A stretch of 64,000 bases of DNA. It comes from an uncultured virus (IMG/VR IMGVR_UViG_3300028392_001454). Lineage: Duplodnaviria > Heunggongvirae > Uroviricota > Caudoviricetes > Crassvirales. Below are positions 176 to 51,800 of this stretch, in pieces. Within the stretch, counting starts at the first letter, position 1. Every line of letters starts with the position of its first letter. The stretch lies in the IMG/VR virus record IMGVR_UViG_3300028392_001454; one strand, given 5' to 3'. The translations under genes and the position numbers were made by a program. The notes beneath the pieces are model-generated. The model did not search any database, was not told the DNA's origin, and was given only the letters and a program-made list of their open reading frames with translations.

Positions 176-3148
176 AGATGTTTTCTTTGATTCTTTACCA
201 GCAAATATATCTGCTGCTACTTTTTTACCAAACTCATCAATAGTTAATTTAGAAACTTGTTCAGCAGACATATCTCTTATACCAAACTCTTTTACTACAG
301 CTCTCCACATAGAAGAAATCCATTCCTTAAACGAACTCTTTTGTGTTTCTGTAGCAAACTTCTCTCCATTATCGCCAATAGCTTTAGCTAAAGCTTCTTT
401 TTTGTAGTACAGTTCTTTTTCAGTATCGCTTAATTTACTTGCTTGTTCTTTATAGAATTTATTATTTTTAACATCTTTTAAATAAGTACTATTTTCTACT
501 TTAGCCAAACCAGCTTCATGTAGATCTGGTCTATTTTGTTCAGCCCAACTAGTCCATATATGACCAGCTTCGTGTATTGGAGAGTTTGGATTAATTTTTT
601 CTCCATTTAAAAATATCTTACCATTTTGTTCAAAACCATAAACATCACCTTTAGAGTCAGTCATAAACTGGGTTTCTGTTTTAGGCAATTCTATCTCTGG
701 TTTAACAATACCTTTTGCCCATCCAACGACATTAGATCCTAATTTAGTTTTAGTTGCAGTTTTATTATCCGAATCATTTAACACATCATGAACTTGATAT
801 TTGTTTTCAAGAAGATGTAGTGTAGGTTTAATTATATTTCCATCTTTGTCTATAGATCTAATATGGCTTCCATAGCTTTCATGCTCTCCTTTAACTATCT
901 CAACTGGATGTTTTACTTCTATAACTCCGTAAACGTCACTATTCTTAGCTCCAACAGTAGCTTCATCAGAAAACAATAACCCAATAGCATCTGCAATACC
1001 TTCTTTAGCAAAGCTAATTTTACCGCTTTTTCTATCTGAAGATTTTGGTAATTCTTTTGTATTTAAAATATTTCTTATTTCTTCAATATTATCTTTTGCA
1101 GATTTTGAATTTTCAGATAAATGATTTATAATATCTTCAACAAAAGTACCTCTATTTTTAAATGTATTGTCTGATTTTTCAACAAAATTCTTAACAAGGA
1201 AATCATGTATAGATTTCATATCTGACTTTCCATTATATTCCATTCCGTATTTTTTACCTACAGAATTCAATGAATTTCTAAAATCAGATACACTTATAAG
1301 TCCTTTGTCAACTAAATGTTCTAAAACATTCATAGCTCCTCTAGCTCCAGCATGAGAAGATAATAATTTACCTAAAGTACCTTTTGACAACACTATATAT
1401 GCAACGCCTGATTCTTTTATTTGTTCATTAATAAAATCTCTCATTACTTTTGCTGCACTTGCTTTTTCAGAAAAAGCCCATACATCTCCAGTGTTAGATA
1501 CAAAATGAATTCCACCTTGACCAGTACCAATAACTTTATCACCAGCCATCACTGTACCTACCATCATATTATCTGGATTGATAACAAATACTGGTTTTCC
1601 AGCAAACTGATTAATGTTTTGGTTTTCTTTTATATTACCACTTTTTACTAAATCTTTATACTGAGCACTTTCTTCAAATCCTTTCTTCTCAAATCCTCCA
1701 AAAGCCTGAAAGTTTACATTTTCACCTTTCTTAGCTTCCTCTACAGCTTTATTCCATTCATCACCAGATAATGTAATTACATCGCTGTCAGATTTGCCAA
1801 AAACTTTTTGTATAGTTTTTTTAATTCTATTTACTATAGATTTGTTCACTCCTATTTTAGATGTAACATCAGAAAGCCTTTCTCCATTTGGTAAATCAAA
1901 ATATTCAGGATTAAAATCACCCCATTCTTTTGTTCCATGCATAGCTCCTTCTCCATCAACCATTTGAGGAATAGCTTTTTGTTGTGTATCACTCAATAAC
2001 TTAGACATCTCTAAATCAGTCAAAGATCTAGATAGTTTAACGGCTAATGTAGATTCTATATTTTCTTTTCCATCTATAATGCTTTTAACATCTTTAACTC
2101 CATCTTCTAATACTTTTACGTCTTTAGGCAACATAGATATTACATTGTCTTTATTTAAAAGCTGTTCAGTAGTACCTATATTTAATCCTATATTTAAGAA
2201 ATTACCTTTAGGAGCATTATCTATTTTTACATTATCAGTTCTTTCATGTGTTTTCTCACTTCTTCTCTTCTCTTCTTTAAATTCAACAGCTTCCTTATAC
2301 TTGTCCTTAAGTTCTTGAGATACATCAGACTCATCAATCATCTTAGTGATTTCTGCTTGATCCATCTTCTCGTTATCCTCTTTTAAATGGTATAACTTAT
2401 CATATCTATTTTGAGAGTTTCTTTCATCGTTTATAGCGTTATATACCTCCTTTAATTTCTGATCCCTTGTCTCTGGTATAACAGACTTATATCCTTTCTT
2501 TTCATTACTAACATATTCCTCTTTGAATGGTTTCTTAATAACGTCTCCTTCTTTAACCTCCACATCATGAGGCTTAAACTCTTTAGTTGTCTGAGCTCTT
2601 GTCTTACCATCCCACTCAGCAACCACCATATCATACCCTCTCTCTCCAGCAACCTTTGTCATATATGCCAACTGATCGTTTGGTGAGAATCCAATATTTG
2701 GATGGTCCTCTTCAAATCTTTTTCTAGCCTCCTTTATAAGATTCTCTGAGTCTGTGTTGAAGTCGTACACCTTGTCCTTAGGAACCTTAACTGCATACTT
2801 ACTACTACCCTTAACCATGGACTCGCCTCCCTCAGGACCAGTATAGTACATCGCTGCACCACCAGCTCTTCCTAAAGCGGCAGCCTCTTCCTTACTGGTA
2901 GCAAGTGTCTTACCAGTACTTTTCTTTATAGTATCGTAGTCGTTTCCACCCTTATGAAAGAATACAAAGTTACCATCCTTATCTTCTGTAAGGTTAGCAA
3001 AGTTTGATGATTCTTCTGCAGTTATTGGTTTTCTAGGTTTAAGTCTAGCTATAATATCAGTAAGTCCGCCCTCATCTCTAAGATGCTTGGCGAACTCGCT
3101 TCTATCGTACCACTTATCTTTGTATTTAATTAAGCAAGGTCCTGCCAT
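1..3148 (-). CDS. Giant polyvalent (virion-injected) protein, N-terminal part, open at left edge: ART-like domain, SAM-lyase-like domain, zincin metallopeptidase (HEAGH) with an inserted domain
   Basis: Not in the ORF track because it has no stop. Manual translation from ATG 3148 (MAGPCLIKYK...) is open to base 1. Motifs FVFFH..MYYT..VYDF..GYDMVV; FLNIGLN..ESTLAV..TQQKAI..WGDFNPEYF; YGF..GKIFLN..SPIHEAGHIW..EALAKAIGD. Joins in frame to 62741..59287 through the repeat, about 2200 aa in total. Confidence 0.85.
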   Translation of the reverse strand, partial: MAGPCLIKYKDKWYDRSEFAKHLRDEGGLTDIIARLKPRKPITAEESSNFANLTEDKDGNFVFFHKGGNDYDTIKKSTGKTLATSKEEAAALGRAGGAAMYYTGPEGGESMVKGSSKYAVKVPKDKVYDFNTDSENLIKEARKRFEEDHPNIGFSPNDQLAYMTKVAGERGYDMVVAEWDGKTRAQTTKEFKPHDVEVKEGDVIKKPFKEEYVSNEKKGYKSVIPETRDQKLKEVYNAINDERNSQNRYDKLYHLKEDNEKMDQAEITKMIDESDVSQELKDKYKEAVEFKEEKRRSEKTHERTDNVKIDNAPKGNFLNIGLNIGTTEQLLNKDNVISMLPKDVKVLEDGVKDVKSIIDGKENIESTLAVKLSRSLTDLEMSKLLSDTQQKAIPQMVDGEGAMHGTKEWGDFNPEYFDLPNGERLSDVTSKIGVNKSIVNRIKKTIQKVFGKSDSDVITLSGDEWNKAVEEAKKGENVNFQAFGGFEKKGFEESAQYKDLVKSGNIKENQNINQFAGKPVFVINPDNMMVGTVMAGDKVIGTGQGGIHFVSNTGDVWAFSEKASAAKVMRDFINEQIKESGVAYIVLSKGTLGKLLSSHAGARGAMNVLEHLVDKGLISVSDFRNSLNSVGKKYGMEYNGKSDMKSIHDFLVKNFVEKSDNTFKNRGTFVEDIINHLSENSKSAKDNIEEIRNILNTKELPKSSDRKSGKISFAKEGIADAIGLLFSDEATVGAKNSDVYGVIEVKHPVEIVKGEHESYGSHIRSIDKDGNIIKPTLHLLENKYQVHDVLNDSDNKTATKTKLGSNVVGWAKGIVKPEIELPKTETQFMTDSKGDVYGFEQNGKIFLNGEKINPNSPIHEAGHIWTSWAEQNRPDLHEAGLAKVENSTYLKDVKNNKFYKEQASKLSDTEKELYYKKEALAKAIGDNGEKFATETQKSSFKEWISSMWRAVVKEFGIRDMSAEQVSKLTIDEFGKKVAADIFAGKESKKTSEIDYKGKTYFKNEKGTWVNSATGNEIKGIGPIGKELINNLEKTLHPETPIHKEGITPK

Positions 3149-35591: not shown

Positions 35592-35774
35592 CTAATTGTT
35601 TTCAAATTGTTCTTTAACAAAATCTAATAAACCCTCCATGGTTTCAAAAACATAAGGAATTGGAGTTGCTTGACCATTATAATTCCATTCTCTTAAATAT
35701 ACTTGATAGCCATTTCTAGCCTTTTCTATTATAACTTTATTTATGTCTACTTCTATTACATTTATTTTTCCCAT
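35592..35774 (-). CDS. Hypothetical AT-rich 60-aa ORF between groEL and groES
   Basis: Coupled to the groEL stop; composition differs from its neighbours. Confidence 0.6.
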   Translation of the reverse strand: MGKINVIEVDINKVIIEKARNGYQVYLREWNYNGQATPIPYVFETMEGLLDFVKEQFENN

Positions 35775-37375
35775 TATGCTCTTGCTATTGTTATAATTGC
35801 GTTTGTACTTAAAATAGTTGTGGCAACACTCACCGCGTTCTTTAACGCGTTATTGGTAACCTTAAGCGGATCAATGATCCCCATCTTAAACATGTCACCA
35901 TAGACCTCGTTCTTAACATCGTATCCTTGACCAGCCTCAGCTTGATTCATGATCTCGAACCCATCCTTACCAGCGTTGGTTATGATCTGCAACAGTGGTG
36001 TCTCAATAGCTCTTGACATTATCATCCTTGCGATGTACTCGTTATGACTTAACTCATCCATCATGTCAATCGTGTGCTCGCTGATCTTATCCGCAATGTT
36101 AAACAAAGCCAAACCCCCACCTGGCAGAATGCCCTCCTCTAACGCAGACCTTACCGCACACACAGCGTCATCAACTCTATCGTACCTCTCCTTCTGCTCA
36201 ATGTCAGAGTTACCACCAACATATATCACACCAACACCACCAGTTAGCGAAGCGATACGCTCCTTAACAGCGTCCCTCTCTGACTTCCTCTTTGCCAGGT
36301 TGTGCTGAACCCATAGCTGCTCAACTCGCTCCTTAATCTCATCGCTTGTCTGCTCTGATCTAACTATAACCGTCTTGTCTCTATCCACAATGATACGGTC
36401 CGCCTTACCAAGGTGCTCCATTTTAATCAAGCTCAGGTCATCACCAGTCTGCTCACTGAAGTACTTAGCCCCAACAGCTAGTGCAATGTCAGCCATAAGC
36501 TCCTGTTGTTTGTACCCAAACTGTGGTGGCATAATGTTACAAAGCTTAAGATTATTCTGAGCCACATTCGCTGCAAGCGTGTTAACCACATTGCTCGTGC
36601 ATGGCCCAATGATCAGCAGCTTCTTGTTATCATTAATGATTGGCTTAAGAACGTTCTCAATCGATAGTATGTTGCTTATCTCCTGGTCCGTAACCAAGAC
36701 ATAAACATCATCCATGATGCACTCGTCCTTCTTAAAGTCGTTAACGAACAGCTTGCTCGTGTAACCCCTTGCAACCTTTATACCGTTAGTAACCTCTGAG
36801 TACGTGTCAGCCGTTTGAGAGTTCTCTATCGTAACGATACCGTCCCTTCCAACCTTCTGGTATGCGTCAGCAATAATCCTTCCAAGCTCCTTGTCATTAT
36901 TGGCAGATATAGCGGCAACATCCCTTAGCGTGTTACCCTTAACCTTACGACTCATTCTCTTAAGGTCAGCAATCACCTCATCCGTTATAAGGTTCATGTA
37001 CCTAATAACCTCGGTAACGTTGTGCTTCTCCGTCAGGAGCTCCATGCCAATCCTAACAATAGCCTCTGTCAGCACAATAGCCGTTGTTGTCCCATCACCA
37101 GCACTTGACGCAGTCCTATCAGCCGCCTCCTTCATCATCTTAACCGCTAGGTTCTCAACTGGGTTGGTAAGGTCAATACTCTTTGCAACTGTCACACCAT
37201 CCTTAGTGACCGTTATACCGTGTGTGTGGTTCCTTGACTCTATAAGAACAGTATTACCTCTTGGTCCTAGCGTGCTCTTAACAGCCTTTGCAATGGTAGT
37301 GATACCATTAATTAATAGCTCACGACCTTCTTGGTCGAAGACTAACTCCTTAGGGGAGTACATGTAGTTTTCCAT
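35774..37375 (-). CDS. groEL: Chaperonin GroEL
   Basis: TLGPRG, TKDGVTVAK, GDGTTT, ISANND, EEGILPGGG, GIIDPLKV; no GGM tail. Confidence 0.98.
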   Translation of the reverse strand: MENYMYSPKELVFDQEGRELLINGITTIAKAVKSTLGPRGNTVLIESRNHTHGITVTKDGVTVAKSIDLTNPVENLAVKMMKEAADRTASSAGDGTTTAIVLTEAIVRIGMELLTEKHNVTEVIRYMNLITDEVIADLKRMSRKVKGNTLRDVAAISANNDKELGRIIADAYQKVGRDGIVTIENSQTADTYSEVTNGIKVARGYTSKLFVNDFKKDECIMDDVYVLVTDQEISNILSIENVLKPIINDNKKLLIIGPCTSNVVNTLAANVAQNNLKLCNIMPPQFGYKQQELMADIALAVGAKYFSEQTGDDLSLIKMEHLGKADRIIVDRDKTVIVRSEQTSDEIKERVEQLWVQHNLAKRKSERDAVKERIASLTGGVGVIYVGGNSDIEQKERYDRVDDAVCAVRSALEEGILPGGGLALFNIADKISEHTIDMMDELSHNEYIARMIMSRAIETPLLQIITNAGKDGFEIMNQAEAGQGYDVKNEVYGDMFKMGIIDPLKVTNNALKNAVSVATTILSTNAIITIARA

Positions 37376-37400
37376 TTAATTTAATTGATTTAATTATTGG

Positions 37401-37408
37401 CAAATGTA
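37401..37408 (-). promoter_or_regulatory. groEL promoter -7 element TACATTTG inside an imperfect palindrome (37396-37424)
   Basis: TAnnTTTG; attggcaaatgta-a-tacatttttgccaat. Confidence 0.6.
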
Positions 37409-37489
37409 ATACATTTTTGCCAATGTTTTATTTTTTTCTAAACTCTTCTATAATTGGTATAAAAGCTATAATTAATATAGCAACAATTG

Positions 37490-37621
37490 CTACCACGTGA
37501 TGCTGAGTTTTAAAATGAAGAAGTAAATGTTAACCTCTCTGTAGTCATACAGCTCGTCCTTCTGAAAGAAGTTAAAACCAAACATACAGTAGTTGGGTGA
37601 CATCTCTAAAGCTATTTCCAT
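37490..37621 (-). CDS. Hypothetical 43-aa protein
   Basis: Manual translation MEIALEMSPNYCMFGFNFF...ITW; codon style matches the core genes. Confidence 0.5.
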   Translation of the reverse strand: MEIALEMSPNYCMFGFNFFQKDELYDYREVNIYFFILKLSITW

Positions 37622-37633
37622 ATTTTTAAGTTT

Positions 37634-37822
37634 GTGTCGTTATGACGAAAATTATGTCCATATTCTACTATATATATATTTATTATTTTATATATTTTTT
37701 TTTATGTAGAAATAGGAAAAAAAACGTCGCAGCGACACTAAACCTTGTTAGCCCATATCAATCCTCAGAAAAGTCCATGACAAACTTTTTTAAAATCGAC
37801 ACCGTTGCGACGATAATCGTCG
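37634..37822 (+). repeat. Origin-like element, copy 1 (inverted relative to 40170..40360)
   Basis: GTGTC-n4-TGACG, TA-rich tract, CGTCG-n3-CGACACTAA, 33-nt spacer, CCATGACAAACTTTTT, CGACAC-n5-CGACGAT. Confidence 0.9.
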
Positions 37823-37835
37823 TAAAAACGTGTTT

Positions 37836-38009
37836 TTAGAACATTTTCTTAATTTGCTCGGCTCTAAGAATGGTGTTTACCTTCTCATTCATTTTCATTT
37901 CTCTCTTAATGTGAGAGATTTTTTTGATCAAGTTCTGACCATCAGGTTGGTAATTTAATAACCTTCCGTCCTTAACTAACAACCCACTTAAATCTTTTTT
38001 CTTTTCCAT
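37836..38009 (-). CDS. Hypothetical basic 57-aa protein
   Basis: Start taken at MEKKK (ATG 38009), downstream of a promoter. Confidence 0.55.
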   Translation of the reverse strand: MEKKKDLSGLLVKDGRLLNYQPDGQNLIKKISHIKREMKMNEKVNTILRAEQIKKMF

Positions 38010-38022
38010 GATATATTTTTTG

Positions 38023-38030
38023 CAAAGATA
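38023..38030 (-). promoter_or_regulatory. -7 promoter element TATCTTTG (first leftward promoter)
   Basis: TAnnTTTG(CA) upstream of ATG 38009. Confidence 0.65.
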
Positions 38031-38044
38031 TAAAATAATCAGAT

Positions 38045-38760
38045 ATGTAGGGGTTGGGGATAATAGGGCGGTTTTGCGAGGCGGGGTGCCAAAAGAAAAC
38101 GACTTCAAATCAGCAACGGGGGTACCGTTTTTGCCTATTTCCTTCAGTTTTTTTGGCTTTTCGGGACGGGTGCAGTGGTGGGGGTAGGTGGTGTGCTGTC
38201 ACGTTCTGCGTGGTGGTGGGGTAGTGGCTAGGTGCAGTGGCTTGGCTGTGCCTACTACTATGCTATGCAAGGTAACTTGCTATGCCGTGAGAGAGTATTG
38301 CATATTGCGATGTGCGGTACTATGCGATACAAGGTAGTTGGTATAGACCTTGAGTGACTGACCGAGCTGATTAACTATAAACAATAACTATTGTATTGGT
38401 ATAAACAATAGACACAAACAATGATAGATAAAATCTATCGAGCAATAGATTTATTGCAGACGCAAAACCTTATGTTTATTGGTATTTTGCGTTTAAGCAA
38501 CGAACTCGAAGGAGGTGGTATATTATATCGTCTTGGGGTAATATCGTGCCGCAAATGGCTTTAAAATGCGTTTTAGGGGCATTCAAGGGCTGTGACGGGG
38601 GGTAACACCTAAGATGCTACGTGTAAGTGTTAAGTACTACCAAATATTAAACAATCGTTTAACTTCCTTATATATATATACGTGCGTGTGTATATACTAT
38701 ATTACAATGGGGTAACCTTCGTGAAGCCTAGTAAAATAAGGTATATTAAAGTTTTAACAA
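38045..38760. other. Non-coding divergence region with G-rich skew; candidate genome terminus / packaging region
   Basis: No credible ORF; G/T-rich tract 38160-38250 with ggtgcagtgg twice; lies between the two divergent transcription units. Confidence 0.5.
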
Positions 38761-38777
38761 AATTTTAACATTTTAAT

Positions 38778-38809
38778 TTTGGTCATCAAATATAGTCGCC
38801 GTAGGTTTG
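38778..38809 (+). promoter_or_regulatory. Major early promoter TTTG-n20-TAGGTTTG
   Basis: Full Bacteroidota -33/-7 consensus with 20-nt spacing; tandem ttttaaca just upstream. Confidence 0.8.
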
Positions 38810-38814
38810 TCAAA

Positions 38815-39011
38815 GAAATGAACGAGTGGAGTTAACCACTTATTAAATCGGATGTCATCCTTTCCTAGCAGGATGTTGCGAGACCACAGCGAGAAAGTGG
38901 CGGGAGTCATAAAAGACTATAAAATAGGGTGTAGCTACTCTGGAATAGAAGGTCAAAGTAATCCTTGAAGTCCGAAGCTACGATAGTCATTCAAATAGAT
39001 TGACGTCGTTA
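38815..39011 (+). ncRNA. Candidate structured RNA between the early promoter and the hammerhead
   Basis: Serial hairpins: agtgg/ccact, catcct/aggatg, ccac/gtgg, agtc/gact, gtagct/agctac enclosing gga..aagg/cctt..tcc, gtca/tgac. Confidence 0.45.
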
Positions 39012-39064
39012 AGTGTCCAAGAGTGTGTTACTCTTGCTGATGAGCCACAGAATGGCGAAACACT
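39012..39064 (+). ncRNA. Type III hammerhead ribozyme, predicted cleavage after GUC (C39017)
   Basis: AGUGUC; stem I caagagu/acucuug (loop GUGUU); CUGAUGA; stem II gcca/uggc (loop CAGAA); GAAA; CACU closing stem III. Confidence 0.93.
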
Positions 39065-39078
39065 AAAAACTTTATATT

Positions 39079-39297
39079 ATGAAAACACTAGAACAAATTT
39101 CAACACGAGCTCATAAATTGTACAGCCAACTAGAATTGGGTGCATTCTTTGACCTATACCACGACAAGATGCTGTATATGGTAGAGGAAATTGATATGCT
39201 AGACGATGACGACACGGCATATGCGGAGGATTTGCTTGCAGAGTGCGAGGCAATCATCAAGGCACAAAAGATATTAAATAACGTAAACATAAAATAA
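39079..39297 (+). CDS. First early protein, acidic, 72 aa
   Basis: ATG 14 nt after the ribozyme; strongly Asp/Glu-rich. Confidence 0.7.
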   Translation: MKTLEQISTRAHKLYSQLELGAFFDLYHDKMLYMVEEIDMLDDDDTAYAEDLLAECEAIIKAQKILNNVNIK

Positions 39298-39556
39298 TAT
39301 GAAACGAAACGAAATTCAAGGTGGCTGTATATTGGCCACCTTCCTGCTTATAGCAGTAATAGTACTAAGCCAACTTTTAACAATTATAGATTATGTATTC
39401 GGAAATTAGAACATACACACAAGTAACTTGTACAGGTGTTATCCGTACAATGTACACGGCAAAGGTGCAGGGCACCACCTACCATGCTGACAGCATAGAC
39501 AAACTAAACTATTTTATTAACAACCACGTAGAGGTACGTGAAAACACATTTTAATT

Positions 39557-39820
39557 ATGAGAGTATTAATTACACGAGGAGCCTACGGCTTTGGTCACGA
39601 TTGGACGCTAGATGCGTTTGATAAAAAATACTACTTAGGTCAGGACGTAAAGTTCTGCTCCCGAGTACTAGGCGTAAGCCCTAGCACTTTGGTTGCACAC
39701 CTAGGAAGTGCTGAAATAGAGGAGCCTAAGGTAAACACTAAACTAGCCAAGTTTATATGTAAGAGACTAGGCATAACTAAAAAAACAAACATTAACCCTT
39801 GGGACTTATGTGCCCAATAA
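39557..39820 (+). CDS. Hypothetical early protein
   Basis: 87-aa ORF with AT-rich leader (GAYGFGHDW, YLGQDVKFCSRVLG). Confidence 0.7.
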   Translation: MRVLITRGAYGFGHDWTLDAFDKKYYLGQDVKFCSRVLGVSPSTLVAHLGSAEIEEPKVNTKLAKFICKRLGITKKTNINPWDLCAQ

Positions 39821-48873: not shown

Positions 48874-51800
48874 TGATACGAGAGAAACTAATGGAGATAA
48901 ACCAAGAGACTTGGAACTCCGACAAGATTGATCTGCAAGAACAGTTTGTGAGAGAGTTTGCAATAGGATTTGGAGAATATTTAGATACCTTGACAACTGA
49001 AGATATGGGAACTTTATCAATTAAAGAACTATTAAAAATCTACGAGAATGGAGATAGGGAATAAGGTTATATGTATCGATGCTGGTAAGCAACCACACAC
49101 CGCTGAGGAGCTTAACAACGACATGCCAAACTGGGTTGTCAAGGGTAGGACTTACACCATAAGAGACGTAGTTGACTCCGACTTTGTTGTCGGGGTTAGG
49201 CTTGAGGAGTTGCACAACCCCTCTAGATACTTCAGACTTGTTGACAGGAGTATGGAGGGGTGCTTTGCCACTTGGAGGTTTAGGAAACAAGAACAGGTAA
49301 CTAAAGAGGTAGAGAGCTATGAGTACAGTGGACAATTTTAGGTGGTGTATTGAGAACGACTGGCAGGTCTACCTCAAACCATATGGTAGTGGAGCGTATA
49401 TTGCCATCCGTAAGGGGGGTATATCTGCATGTGGTAAGGAGTATCACTATGATAGGGTGACTGGACTGGAGTACTACTCAAAGGAGAATGTAGGAACAGT
49501 ATATTACAAAAACATACAGAAGGCAATGGACATGTTGCCAAAGGTTTATAAATATTTAAAAGATAAATAATATGATGATAATAGTAGACGGAAAACACGA
49601 GTACGATTATGAAGTACATGATAACGTACACAAACTAAGATATTCAGATAATGATTCTTGGACATATCCTAAAGATGTAGCTATGCGAATAGTTGATGAT
49701 GGGAACGGATTGGTGGTTAAACTTGATGAGAAGGGTAGAATAAACTACGGTGAGGCAGAAAGATTGATTATACTTCTAAAGATCATTAATAAAAATACCA
49801 AGTATGAGGTAGTAACTAATAAAGAGATGTTATGAAACACGAAGTAAAATCTATTCCTATAGAAGAAATTCTTGCTAATAGATGTAATGCTTATGAGTTT
49901 ATTGATTTTGATAAACAAGAAACACAACAAGTAATTGATGAAGATTTTGATGGAGGTTTAACTATGGGGCAGATTATTCCAAAGGAAGAAACTATTTGCA
50001 TTCAAACAGGATTACCTTGTGGTATTACTTGTTTCAGCGAAGAAGTTTGTAATATAAATTTTTACACTGAAGAAGATGTAAAAAATGCATTCCTTGATGG
50101 TTGGTAATTAAGAGATGGAGATTTACCATTTCCTAAAGCAAAGAAAAAATGGTTTAATGAATTTAAAAAGAAATTATGAAAACAGCAGTAGAATGGTTAC
50201 AAGATTGTTTAACAGAGCAATATCCAAATGGTTCATTTGTTTGGAATACAAAAGCAGATTTAGAAGCTTTATTTAAACAAGCCAAAGAAATGGAAAGAGA
50301 ACAACAAGGATATACTCAAGAAAAAGTGTTTGAAATAGAAAGATATAGAGCAATAGATTTTGCAAAATGGTTTTCAGATTTTAATGGTTTAACTTGGGAA
50401 GAAAAAAGAGTAACTAAGGAACGTCTTGATACTCTTTATGAAAAATACTTAGGTACACTTGGAGGTGGAATTTAAAAACAATTTAAAAACAAATAAGATA
50501 TGCTGTATAAGAGAGTAACTATGCCTATATATAATCAGGTATTGCATATTGCAATATGCGATGATGCAGAAAAGGAGATAGAAGAGGTAAATAAGAAGTT
50601 CTATACTAACTTGGATAAGTTTGAGTTTTCAGGATATGCTCATAGAGAGGGTAAGCACTATCTAATACTTCTAAATAAAAAGGAGTTAATAGATGAACCA
50701 TTTACTATTAGTACAATAGCTCACGAGGCTTTCCATATTACAAGCTTTGTAATGAAGCGTGTAGGAATACATCCTGATGTTAACAATGATGAAGCTCAGG
50801 CATATTTACTCTCTTGGATAGTAGAACAAGTTTATAAATTTTATAAAAAAAAATAATATATGAAACCACAAAACAAACTTTCAGTAATGATATTAACAAT
50901 ACTTGGAATAATCGAATTAATTGTGTTGATATTACAAGTAATAAGATAATTAAAAACAAATAAGATTAACAGGGAAGCTGAAAACTGAATAGAGTAGGCA
51001 AAATAAATAAATAAATAAATATATGTACACATTAAGAACAATTGAAAAAGATGGTAGAGAAGTAAACATCTACTTAGGAACAAATTACACGCTTTACAGA
51101 AAAGAAAGCATAAGCAAAGAAGACTTTGACTTTAAACTTAATCAGTATTTTGGAGAAGATACTAATAATGAAGACTTAGAGAAAAGGGATTTAGTAAAAG
51201 CATTTATTGATGCAACACATTTACCAAATGCATTAACTATCAATTATGGGGTTACGTATTACATTGTAAATGACTCAGGTAAAACATTTCAAAAACTTTA
51301 AAAACAAATAAAATGAAACAAAAAACACTTGAAGAAACTTATCTAAATGAACTTATTGACGAAGCAAATAAAGAGTTTACTTTAGACAAAAAATTAGCTA
51401 AAGAAGTAGCTATAAAGTTTTATAAATGGCAAGAGCAAAGAATGTATACTGAACAAGAAGTATTAGTGTTATTACATAAAAGGGATAAGCATAATTGGGA
51501 TAGAAGTTTATGGCAAACACCTAAAGAATGGTTAGAAAAATTTAAAAATAAATAAGATATGGAAGTAGTGTATAGACATAGCTATGGTAATGATAGTTTT
51601 GGAGAAGTAAGAAAAACTAAAGATAATTTATATTACTGTTTTACCACACCACTATTTGGTGGTGAATGGATAGAACAAGAAGTTTTTGACGACAAAGAAG
51701 AAGCAATAGAGTTTATAAACTCATTAACTTAAAAACAAATAAGATGAAAACACTTTTAGGAATATTTTTAGTAGCAACTTTATTTTTAGTAACATTTTCT

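What the first reader, a model, noticed from the sequence alone, without database searches (positions are those of the whole stretch)
38778..39079. Early promoter, structured RNA, hammerhead ribozyme, then first genes: a self-processing first transcript
Seen: a full -33/-7 promoter, about 200 nt of serial hairpins, then a perfect type III hammerhead (39012-39064; GUC, CUGAUGA, GAAA, three paired stems) ending 14 nt before the first early ATG. Established: hammerhead cleavage gives a 2',3'-cyclic-phosphate 5' product and a 5'-OH 3' product. Inference: right after entry, with no phage protein needed, the phage cuts its first transcript into a discrete ~200-nt RNA and a 5'-OH, hairpin-capped mRNA for early genes including the SAM lyase. 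The released RNA could be a decoy or anti-defence RNA, or the cut may simply set mRNA stability.
Basis: partly seen in the sequence, partly recalled or inferred. Interest (0 to 1): 0.88.

Follow-up and report, generated by a model that had tools for sequence, protein, structure and literature searches.

The report
Self-cleaving leader before phage early genes
A Flavobacterium-type phage places a genuine hammerhead ribozyme, preceded by a conserved folded RNA of unknown class, just in front of the first gene of its rightward operon, an arrangement that recurs in about ninety related viral sequences and offers a testable role for phage hammerheads.

Summary
Window 39012-39064 (+) is a complete type III hammerhead, the only one in 64 kb, and none appeared in 200 simulated sequences. 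Ten relatives found through upstream-only patterns all carry it. Ten of its 17 pairs show compensatory changes and 99.4% of cells are paired. A model built from 74 other viral hammerheads scores it 70.2 bits. Rfam's own model misses it, at 22 bits against a cut-off of 48.5.

The roughly 200 nt upstream is also a conserved, covarying RNA (H-a, H-b, P1-P6), with no Rfam match and no hit in 151 host-genus genomes.

New here: 86 of 91 related loci parse as the same ribozyme. Stem III ends 12-15 nt before an ATG in 58 of 86, against 6.4% at random positions. The following small proteins fall into 59 unrelated clusters. Each of four full-length phage genomes searched has one copy.

Best reading: a promoter-proximal cassette in which self-cleavage detaches a structured leader from a variable first gene. 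This resembles the synthetic RiboJ insulator and the HF1/HF2 halovirus hammerhead. Cleavage and the leader's function are untested. No SAM lyase was found.

The parts
38778..38809 (+). Promoter-like site of the Bacteroidota type: TTTG 38778-38781, a 20-nt spacer, then TAGGTTTG 38802-38809. The implied transcript start is near 38813-38816.
   Evidence: Read. The -7 box and what follows are conserved in L127, while DNA further upstream is not. A TAnnTTTG box lies 117-211 nt before the cut in 21 of 25 family A loci. The consensus is recalled, and the start site is not mapped.
38826..38875 (+). Optional 5' module of the leader. It comprises hairpin H-a (GUGG 38826-38829 / CCAC 38836-38839), the linker UUAUUAAAUCGG 38840-38851, and hairpin H-b (CAUCCU 38856-38861 / AGGAUG 38870-38875, loop UUCCUAGC).
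   Evidence: Seven distinct sequences share it. Both stems show compensatory changes, for example GUGG/CCAC, CUGG/CCAG, CUAG/CUAG and GUAG/CUAC. This was read by eye and not scored.
38880..39011 (+). Core of the conserved leader RNA:
- P1: 38884-87 / 38897-900.
- P2: 38905-08 / 38915-18.
- Junction AUAAAAUAGGGU: 38919-30.
- P3: 38931-36 / 38976-81.
- ACUC: 38937-40.
- P4: 38939-44 / 38971-75.
- Internal loop AUAG/GAAG.
- P5: 38949-52 / 38963-66.
- P6a: 38982-84 / 39005-07.
- P6b: 38986-92 / 38998-39004, with loop AAAUA.
   Evidence: - Window 38897-39084 is the only part of a 1-kb query that matches cultured phages: 78% identity in 68 'elemo' records.
- RNAalifold and pair counts cover 24 pairs. 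96.6% of cells are paired, 9 pairs have changes on both sides, and 0 of 500 shuffles reach this.
- On 29 sequences, P2, P3 and P4 are kept.
- P6a and P6b are recovered in single-sequence folds, with closing helices such as CACG/CGUG, CAUG/CAUG, CUAG/CUAG, CGCG/CGCG, CUCG/CGAG and CUUG/CAAG.
- Model R1 finds one copy in the window, at 38900-39010.
39012..39064 (+). Type III hammerhead ribozyme. The predicted scission is between C39017 and C39018.
   Evidence: Siblings score 38.6-49.6 bits on RF00008.
39065..39078 (+). A/U-rich 14-nt spacer between stem III and the start codon (AAAAACUUUAUAUU).
   Evidence: The spacing is 12-15 nt in 58 of 86 related loci, against 6.4% at random positions in the same loci.
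39079..39297 (+). First ORF of the rightward module: 72 aa with no family match. It occupies a slot that holds unrelated small proteins in relatives.

Best explanation
A host-type promoter near 38778-38809 starts a transcript whose first roughly 200 nt fold into a conserved multi-hairpin leader (H-a, H-b, P1-P6). Directly after it lies a type III hammerhead.

Once transcribed, the hammerhead cuts itself after C39017. This releases the leader with a 2',3'-cyclic phosphate end. It leaves an mRNA whose 5'-OH end is buried in the stem I hairpin, with the compact ribozyme fold ending 14 nt before the ATG.

The selected role of the cut is to uncouple the first gene from the structured leader. That gene is freely exchangeable. 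Uncoupling keeps its unstructured A/U-rich start region accessible and gives its mRNA a defined, protected 5' end, whatever gene occupies the slot. In this sense it is a natural counterpart of a ribozyme insulator.

Shown: the anatomy, conservation, covariation, single copy per genome, fixed spacing and variable downstream genes. Inferred: the transcript start, the cleavage, the chemistry of the ends (from established hammerhead chemistry), and the benefit for translation and stability.
For: - Only one hammerhead-compatible site exists in the window, and none appeared in 200 simulated windows.
- Ten distinct relatives were found with patterns taken only from the upstream RNA. L143 was dropped as a near-duplicate of L138. 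All ten carry the hammerhead with an intact core. Variation occurs only at N7 (U/A) and H17 (C/A).
- 17 hammerhead pairs are 99.4% paired. Ten pairs have changes on both sides, 0 of 500 shuffles reach this, and the slid controls give 0-1.
- An independent model scores the site at 70.2 bits.
- 91 distinct loci with the same stem II/loop II subtype were examined. 86 parse as perfect type III hammerheads (GUA 53, GUC 32, GUU 1). In 58 of 86 stem III ends 12-15 nt before an ATG, and 81 of 86 of these ATGs open at least 36 codons. Random positions give 6.4%.
- The 81 downstream proteins fall into 59 clusters, the largest with 4 members.
- In the five records searched there is one strong hammerhead each. 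These are three IMG/VR contigs rated 100% complete, elemoA, and one 30% fragment that also has a weak second hit.
- Published precedent: the hammerhead of haloviruses HF1 and HF2 lies 13 nt before the start codon of the first ORF of an early polycistronic transcript. That transcript's mapped 5' end is within 3 nt of the cleavage site (PMC3088659, passages read).
Against: - There is no RNA-level evidence of any kind.
- Rfam's curated type III model does not reach its cut-off on the window: 22 bits against 48.5, in a misregistered alignment.
- With the leader attached, nearest-neighbour folding does not put the hammerhead in the minimum-energy structure of the window. The gap is 4.5 kcal/mol and mean pair probability is 0.24. 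The ribozyme-constrained fold equals the minimum-energy fold (ddG 0) in only 11 of 29 relatives.
- The 86-locus set was collected with a pattern derived from this element. Its core, loop II and stem II length are therefore conserved by construction.
- Many loci are related, so counts of cells and loci are not independent events.
- The insulator reading does not explain why the leader itself is so strongly conserved.
- 'Early' is inferred from gene order only.
Confidence: 0.6

Rival explanations
1. The point of the cut is the leader. The conserved RNA (about 200 nt in the window, 110-210 nt in relatives) is a trans-acting phage non-coding RNA. It is released within seconds of transcription, protected at its 3' end by the cyclic phosphate, and binds a host or phage factor, for example as a decoy, anti-defence RNA or takeover RNA. 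This is compatible with the insulator role and could hold alongside it.
For: - The leader is the best-conserved DNA of the region between the window and the elemo phages. Only 38897-39084 of a 1-kb query matches, while flanking genes do not.
- It has invariant unpaired motifs across 29 sequences: AUAA, GGGU, ACUC and the AAAUA loop.
- It has covarying helices.
- It is always followed by the ribozyme, in 10 of 10 sequences found from leader-only patterns.
Against: - No partner, target complementarity or host look-alike was found. There were no hits in 151 genomes of the host genus sample and no Rfam family at E up to 10 or 0.1 in 12 sibling loci.
- The same ribozyme subtype works behind at least four other upstream types and behind plain gene ends. 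The cut therefore does not need this leader.
Confidence: 0.3
2. The leader acts in cis on transcription. For example it could modify the host RNA polymerase or prevent premature termination in the long untranslated start, as the put RNAs of phage HK022 do (recalled). The ribozyme would then merely remove it afterwards.
For: The element sits directly after the promoter, in one copy per genome, at the head of a roughly 20-kb co-oriented module. It consists of serial conserved hairpins with conserved loops.
Against: There is no similarity to any Rfam antiterminator. Cutting the tether between such an RNA and the polymerase would be expected to weaken a cis effect (recalled from work on put RNA, not read here).
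Confidence: 0.1
3. The leader is a sensor that controls the ribozyme, so that cleavage responds to a ligand, protein or ion.
For: P6a abuts stem III with a linker of 0-5 nt, which would allow coaxial stacking. In several sequences the ribozyme fold competes with alternatives. Perreault et al. raise regulated cleavage as a possibility for phage hammerheads.
Against: No conserved alternative pairing between the leader and the ribozyme exists: the best duplexes differ in place and partner in the 29 sequences. RNAalifold finds none. The ribozyme subtype occurs without this leader.
Confidence: 0.07
4. The hammerhead consensus is a chance resemblance within ordinary 5'-UTR hairpins and does not cleave.
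For: The Rfam gathering score is not reached, and there is no experimental evidence.
Against. These show compensatory changes in all three stems, an invariant core, no chance hits in simulation, and siblings recognised by RF00008 (L171 at 49.6 bits, above the cut-off).
Confidence: 0.03

Closest known systems
Hammerhead ribozyme, type III (Rfam RF00008)
   Same: It has the full catalytic core, a GUH cleavage site, and three helices with stems I and II closed by loops.
   Different: The window's copy scores below the curated cut-off (22 against 48.5 bits). It comes from a DNA phage rather than a viroid, satellite or repeat. It has a fixed loop II (CAGAA) with a 4-bp stem II, shared by about 90 viral loci.
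HHphage of haloarchaeal viruses HF1/HF2 (Perreault et al. 2011, PMC3088659, passages read)
   Same: A hammerhead lies 13 nt before the start codon of the first ORF of an early polycistronic transcript, and the mapped 5' end of that transcript is at the cleavage site.
   Different: That one is an archaeal virus with a core-variant ribozyme needing high salt, and no conserved upstream RNA is described. Here the core is canonical, the hosts are of the Bacteroidota type, and a conserved structured leader precedes the ribozyme.
Multiple hammerheads flanking genes in prophages (same paper)
   Same: The proposed role is processing long phage transcripts into gene-length mRNAs. About half of my 'other' loci (21 of 40) have a same-strand ORF ending at most 200 nt upstream.
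   Different: The window's clade has one ribozyme per genome, placed after a promoter and a non-coding leader.
RiboJ, a synthetic ribozyme insulator placed between promoter and ribosome binding site
   Same: A self-cleaving hammerhead removes the promoter-derived 5' RNA, so that expression of the downstream gene does not depend on upstream context. It leaves a hairpin at the new 5' end.
   Different: RiboJ is engineered. What I state about it is recalled: only lists papers that use it, and I read none of them. The phage element is natural, and its removed part is itself conserved.
RNase III site R0.3 ahead of the first early gene of phage T7 (recalled, not read here)
   Same: The leader is cut off the early polycistronic RNA just before the first early gene, leaving stabilising hairpins at the new ends.
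   Different: T7 uses a host protein enzyme. Here the RNA would cut itself, giving 5'-OH and cyclic phosphate ends.
Hammerheads in 5' UTRs of fungal and plant RNA viruses linked to translation initiation (PMC13725137, passages read)
   Same: A ribozyme stands a few nucleotides before a start codon, and the cleaved 5' end was detected in vivo.
   Different: Those are eukaryotic RNA viruses with type I ribozymes. The paper states that the roles of ribozymes in phage and bacterial DNA remain elusive in most cases.

Membership tests
Hammerhead ribozyme (type III) | Core strand C3-U4-G5-A6-N7-G8-A9 | tested here: met
   CUGAUGA at 39037-39043. It is invariant except N7 (U or A) in the 10 leader-found relatives.
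Hammerhead ribozyme (type III) | Core strand G12-A13-A14, with A15.1 paired to U16.1 | tested here: met
   GAAA at 39057-39060. A39060 pairs with U39016. The pair is kept in 10 of 10 and 29 of 29 sequences.
Hammerhead ribozyme (type III) | Cleavage triplet N-U-H (H is not G) | tested here: met
   GUC at 39015-39017. Among 86 parsed relatives the counts are GUA 53, GUC 32 and GUU 1.
Hammerhead ribozyme (type III) | Three helices at the core, with I and II hairpin-closed and III open, supported by covariation | tested here: met
   Changes on both sides occur in 5 of 8 stem I pairs, 3 of 4 stem II pairs and 2 of 5 stem III pairs.
Hammerhead ribozyme (type III) | Score at or above the gathering cut-off of RF00008 | tested here: not met
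   The window scores 22 bits against 48.5, in a shifted register. Among the 10 sibling loci that RF00008 matched, of 12 searched, one passes (L171, 49.6 bits), seven score 38.6-44.4 and two score 26-28. This is a database criterion, not a structural one.
Hammerhead ribozyme (type III) | Loop I to loop II tertiary contact needed for fast cleavage at low Mg2+ | tested here: inconclusive
   Loop II (CAGAA) and, in most relatives, loop I (GUGUU) are conserved. No pairing or known contact could be assigned.
Hammerhead ribozyme (type III) | Site-specific self-cleavage giving 2',3'-cyclic phosphate and 5'-OH ends | not testable with these tools
   This needs in vitro transcription or end mapping.
Bacteroidota housekeeping promoter (-33 TTTG / -7 TAnnTTTG; consensus recalled) | Both motifs with a spacer of about 19-21 nt | tested here: met
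   TTTG at 38778-81, a 20-nt spacer, then TAGGTTTG at 38802-09. The -7 box is conserved in L127 and present in 21 of 25 family A loci. The tool's sigma-70 scan does not cover this promoter type.
Bacteroidota housekeeping promoter | Mapped transcription start | not testable with these tools
   No RNA data were available.
Any described RNA family, for the leader 38815-39011 | A match to one of the 4227 Rfam 15 models | tested here: not met
   No hit at gathering thresholds. Between 38500 and 39300 only chance-level hits appear at E up to 10, apart from the hammerhead. No leader hit appears in 12 sibling loci at E up to 0.1. ARAGORN finds no tRNA or tmRNA in the window.

The most novel reading that the evidence does not exclude
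The leader (H-a, H-b, P1-P6, with invariant AUAA, GGGU, ACUC and an AAAUA loop) is a new class of phage non-coding RNA. It is manufactured by a ribozyme as the very first product of infection. Its cyclic-phosphate 3' end and compact fold make it stable, and it acts in trans on a host factor or defence system. The ribozyme at the same time hands a clean, insulated mRNA to a hypervariable first gene that may itself be a counter-defence slot. More broadly, 'hammerhead 12-15 nt before the start codon' would be the long-sought general function of many phage hammerheads.
Probability: 0.3. Interest if true: 0.85.

Novelty: new variant of a known kind. Interest (0 to 1): 0.62.

Why it matters
Hammerheads have been known in phage and bacterial DNA since 2011, yet their roles are still described as unclear (PMC3088659) or elusive (PMC13725137).

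This locus belongs to a set of about 90 viral loci with a rule that can be tested. The ribozyme ends 12-15 nt before the start codon of a small, freely exchangeable gene. In the Flavobacterium-phage clade it is a single-copy element behind a promoter and a conserved leader RNA.

A cultured system exists: 68 'elemo' phage genomes on Flavobacterium sp. BAL314. Cleavage, RNA ends, leader stability and the effect of a dead ribozyme on expression and growth can therefore be measured directly.

If the insulator reading holds, nature arrived at the design that synthetic biologists built as RiboJ. If the leader acts in trans, it is a new phage RNA class. The case also shows that Rfam's type III model misses real phage hammerheads.

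Tried and rejected
- **RNA sequencing runs:** no RNA holder was listed for window 38700-39700, so read ends could not be examined.
- **Window's own assembly:** it is not held. The nearest virus record, G001, an 8.7-kb fragment, has no match.
- **Pattern AAAGTAATCCNTGAAG in viral contigs:** inspected all 123 loci held so far, including L001-L005 from earlier calls. Among the loci returned, three (L099, L111, L118) carry the element. The rest are chance matches.
- **Leader pattern in bacterial and archaeal genomes:** 11 matches, none with the element.
- **Leader model R1:**
  - no match in a Flavobacterium MAG;
  - no match in 151 genomes of its genus. These are samples, and stricter filters applied;
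  - it does not detect the other leader types, giving only L170 at E 0.7.
- **tRNA-like reading of the leader:** rejected.
- **Coding reading of the leader:** relatives differ by 1- and 2-nt indels.
- **Conserved switch between leader and ribozyme:** none found.
- **blastn of the sibling L224 against cultured phages:** no match. L200 matched only the elemo hammerhead.
- **SAM lyase:** not found.
- **Literature, in the held library only:** searches found no description of this leader or of a Flavobacterium-phage hammerhead.
- **Supplements:** the supplementary alignments of PMC3088659 were not opened. They might list related metagenomic hammerheads.

Full report
**What is there**

The sequence at 39012-39064 (+) reads as a textbook type III hammerhead:
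- Stem III: AGUGU pairs with ACACU.
- Cleavage triplet: GUC, ending at C39017.
- Stem I: CAAGAGU-GUGUU-ACUCUUG.
- Core strand: CUGAUGA.
- Stem II: GCCA-CAGAA-UGGC.
- GAAA.

The ATG of a 72-codon ORF follows 14 nt after the ribozyme. Folded alone, the 66-nt stretch adopts the three-way junction as its minimum-energy structure, although its energy is unremarkable (z -1.4).

Rfam does not report it at gathering thresholds.

**More than chance**

- A descriptor scan of my own required the core, GAAA, a UH site, and perfect stems of at least 4, 3 and 3 pairs. On both strands of the window it finds only this site. It found none in 200 first-order Markov simulations of the window.
- A covariance model (R2) built from 74 distinct hammerheads of other viral contigs, with the window left out, scores 39011-39065 at 70.2 bits (E 1.6e-17). 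The runner-up scores 9.6 bits.
- Caveat: those 74 were collected with a pattern taken from this element, so 18 core and loop positions agree by construction. The stems do not.

**Relatives**

- blastn of window 38700-39700 against cultured phages matched 68 Flavobacterium phage 'elemo' genomes (Elemovirus, host Flavobacterium sp. BAL314). The match covers only window 38897-39084, at 78% identity. This is exactly the non-coding stretch, not the genes beside it.
- Patterns taken only from the upstream RNA retrieved further copies from IMG/VR and from metagenomes. The same pattern gave only chance matches in one genome per prokaryotic species.
- Ten distinct sequences resulted. L143, which differs from L138 only at the last base, was left out. 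One metagenome contig, L144, is identical to the window.
- All ten carry the hammerhead. In their alignment (A3) the core is invariant except at N7 (U or A), and the cleavage base is C or A. Both are permitted variations.
- RNAalifold predicts the hammerhead junction without prompting.
- On the 17 hammerhead pairs, 99.4% of cells are paired and 10 pairs show changes on both sides. No shuffle of 500 reaches this, and sliding the partners gives 0-1 such pairs.

**The upstream RNA**

The stretch from about 38815 to 39011 is conserved and structured throughout.

- In the ten-sequence set, 24 upstream pairs are 96.6% paired, 9 have changes on both sides, and 0 of 500 shuffles reach this.
- A wider set of 29 distinct sequences (A5) keeps P2, P3 and P4, and 21 of 29 predicted pairs show compensatory changes.
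- Single-sequence folds recover a two-part terminal hairpin in nearly all 29 sequences:
  - P6a has closing helices such as CACG/CGUG, CAUG/CAUG, CUAG/CUAG, CGCG/CGCG, CUCG/CGAG and CUUG/CAAG.
  - P6b carries an AAAUA loop.
- Unpaired AUAA, GGGU and ACUC are invariant.
- P5 is an optional insertion. A 5' module (H-a, the linker AUUAAAUYGG, H-b) is shared by seven distinct sequences and has covarying stems.
- One- and two-base indels between relatives exclude a coding reading.
- No Rfam family matches the leader, and ARAGORN finds no tRNA in the window.
- The leader model R1 finds one copy in the window. It finds none in a Flavobacterium MAG or in 151 sampled genomes of its genus.

**Setting**

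- Genes from 1 to 37375 run leftward. Genes from 39079 to 59166 run rightward. The element therefore heads the rightward module.
- That module starts with many small proteins of no known family. It continues with a Sak-type annealing protein, an exonuclease, a primase/helicase and a helicase. This is a typical early and replication layout, inferred from gene content only.
- A promoter-like site of the Bacteroidota type lies at 38778-38809. Its -7 box and everything downstream are conserved in L127, while DNA further upstream is not.
- I found no SAM lyase.

**A wider class**

A pattern for the core plus stem II and loop II returned 103 IMG/VR stretches, 91 of them distinct when the window is included.

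- 86 of the 91 parse automatically as perfect type III hammerheads.
- Stem III ends 12-15 nt before the next ATG in 58 of 86, and 55 of those ATGs open at least 36 codons. The control at random positions in the same loci gives 6.4% and 2.1%.
- Loci from hosts that use Shine-Dalgarno sequences show a somewhat longer spacer containing AGGAG.
- The 81 downstream proteins form 59 blastp clusters, the largest with four members. In L192 the ribozyme directly precedes a homologue of the window's second ORF.
- By upstream sequence, the parsed loci divide into the window's leader type (25), three other non-coding leader types (5, 10 and 6) and 40 others. Of those 40, 21 have a same-strand ORF ending within 200 nt.
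- A TAnnTTTG box lies 117-211 nt before the cut in 21 of 25 loci of the window's type.
- Rfam recognises siblings as type III hammerheads at 38.6-49.6 bits.
- Three IMG/VR contigs rated 100% complete and the elemoA genome each have exactly one hammerhead.

**How it most likely works**

The constant part is the ribozyme and its distance to the start codon. The variable parts are the gene behind it and, across clades, the RNA in front of it. This is the signature of an expression cassette.

Self-cleavage would remove whatever lies upstream. It would leave an mRNA that begins with the stem I hairpin at a 5'-OH end and presents an unstructured A/U-rich start region of fixed length. These chemical ends follow from established hammerhead chemistry.

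Three comparisons apply:
- It works like the engineered RiboJ insulator (recalled).
- It works like RNase III processing ahead of T7's first early gene (recalled).
- It has a published natural precedent in haloviruses HF1 and HF2, where a hammerhead lies 13 nt before the first early start codon and the transcript's mapped 5' end is at the cleavage site (PMC3088659, passages).

This reading does not explain the strong conservation of the leader in the Flavobacterium-phage clade. I therefore keep open, at about 0.3, that the released leader is itself a trans-acting RNA. The two roles can coexist.

A sensor role is unlikely, because no conserved alternative pairing between leader and ribozyme exists.

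**Against**

- Nothing here shows cleavage, the transcript start or timing. No RNA run was listed.
- With the leader attached, thermodynamic folding does not favour the ribozyme fold in the window (4.5 kcal/mol above the minimum). The ribozyme-constrained fold matches the minimum-energy fold in only 11 of 29 relatives. Such models ignore tertiary contacts and co-transcriptional order.
- Sequences are related, so covariation counts overstate the number of independent events.

**Novelty**

- The ribozyme is a new member of a well-known class.
- Its placement has a precedent.
- The spacing rule over about 90 loci, the single-copy promoter-leader-ribozyme cassette and the leader RNA family were not found in Rfam. 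They were also not found in the papers I could search, which cover only the held library.

Noticed in passing
window 50968-51000 (+): A DUF805b RNA motif (RF02914) scores above its gathering score (38.8 against 35.6 bits). It lies between two small plus-strand ORFs (50500-50856 and 51023-51301).
   Followed up: no
window 35774-37375 (-): A 533-aa ORF whose translation reads like a GroEL/Cpn60 chaperonin. This is by eye and was not run against a family library. It is the first gene of the leftward module.
   Followed up: no
window 37376-38777: About 1.4 kb between the divergent modules has no long ORF. It includes an alternating purine-pyrimidine tract near 38668-38700 and several terminator-like hairpins. 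This could be an origin, genome ends or further RNAs.
   Followed up: no
window 38880-38900 and 39041-39056: The conserved P1 region (GAGACCACAG...GUGGCGG) resembles the ribozyme's own GAG-CCACAG-AAUGGC (end of the core, stem II and loop II). P1's GUGGC could pair with GCCAC of stem II. No consistent pairing was found across relatives, and the resemblance is unexplained.
   Followed up: partly
L192 and L239 (IMG/VR contigs), just after their hammerhead: The ribozyme is followed directly by a homologue of the window's second ORF (39299-39409, a 36-aa hydrophobic peptide). The gene slot behind the ribozyme therefore gains and loses genes.
   Followed up: partly
L216:103-202 (-): A weak match to the RAGATH-1 hammerhead (RF03152: 32.7 against 56.3 bits, E 0.023) lies a few hundred bases downstream of that contig's main hammerhead. 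Model R2 found only one hammerhead in that genome.
   Followed up: partly
L269 (GC-rich IMG/VR contig), 296-352 and 676-732 (-): Two hammerheads of the same subtype lie about 380 nt apart, each just before a small ORF. This is the 'flanking' arrangement described for prophages in 2011.
   Followed up: no
L001 (MT497017.1) 1402-1542 (-): The GenBank annotation of the elemo phages places a 'hypothetical protein' CDS on the opposite strand, over the promoter and leader. No RNA feature is annotated there.
   Followed up: no
L200, L212, L220, L221, L226, L230, L248 and others: A second, longer leader type (about 150 nt, with GGCUGUGAGU...CCAAAUAGGUAGUA...GGUCUAGGAAGA) precedes the same ribozyme. 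A further type precedes it in loci with Shine-Dalgarno sequences (L172, L187, L189, L190, L246, L257). Most types carry an AAAUAG motif. None was analysed for structure.
   Followed up: no
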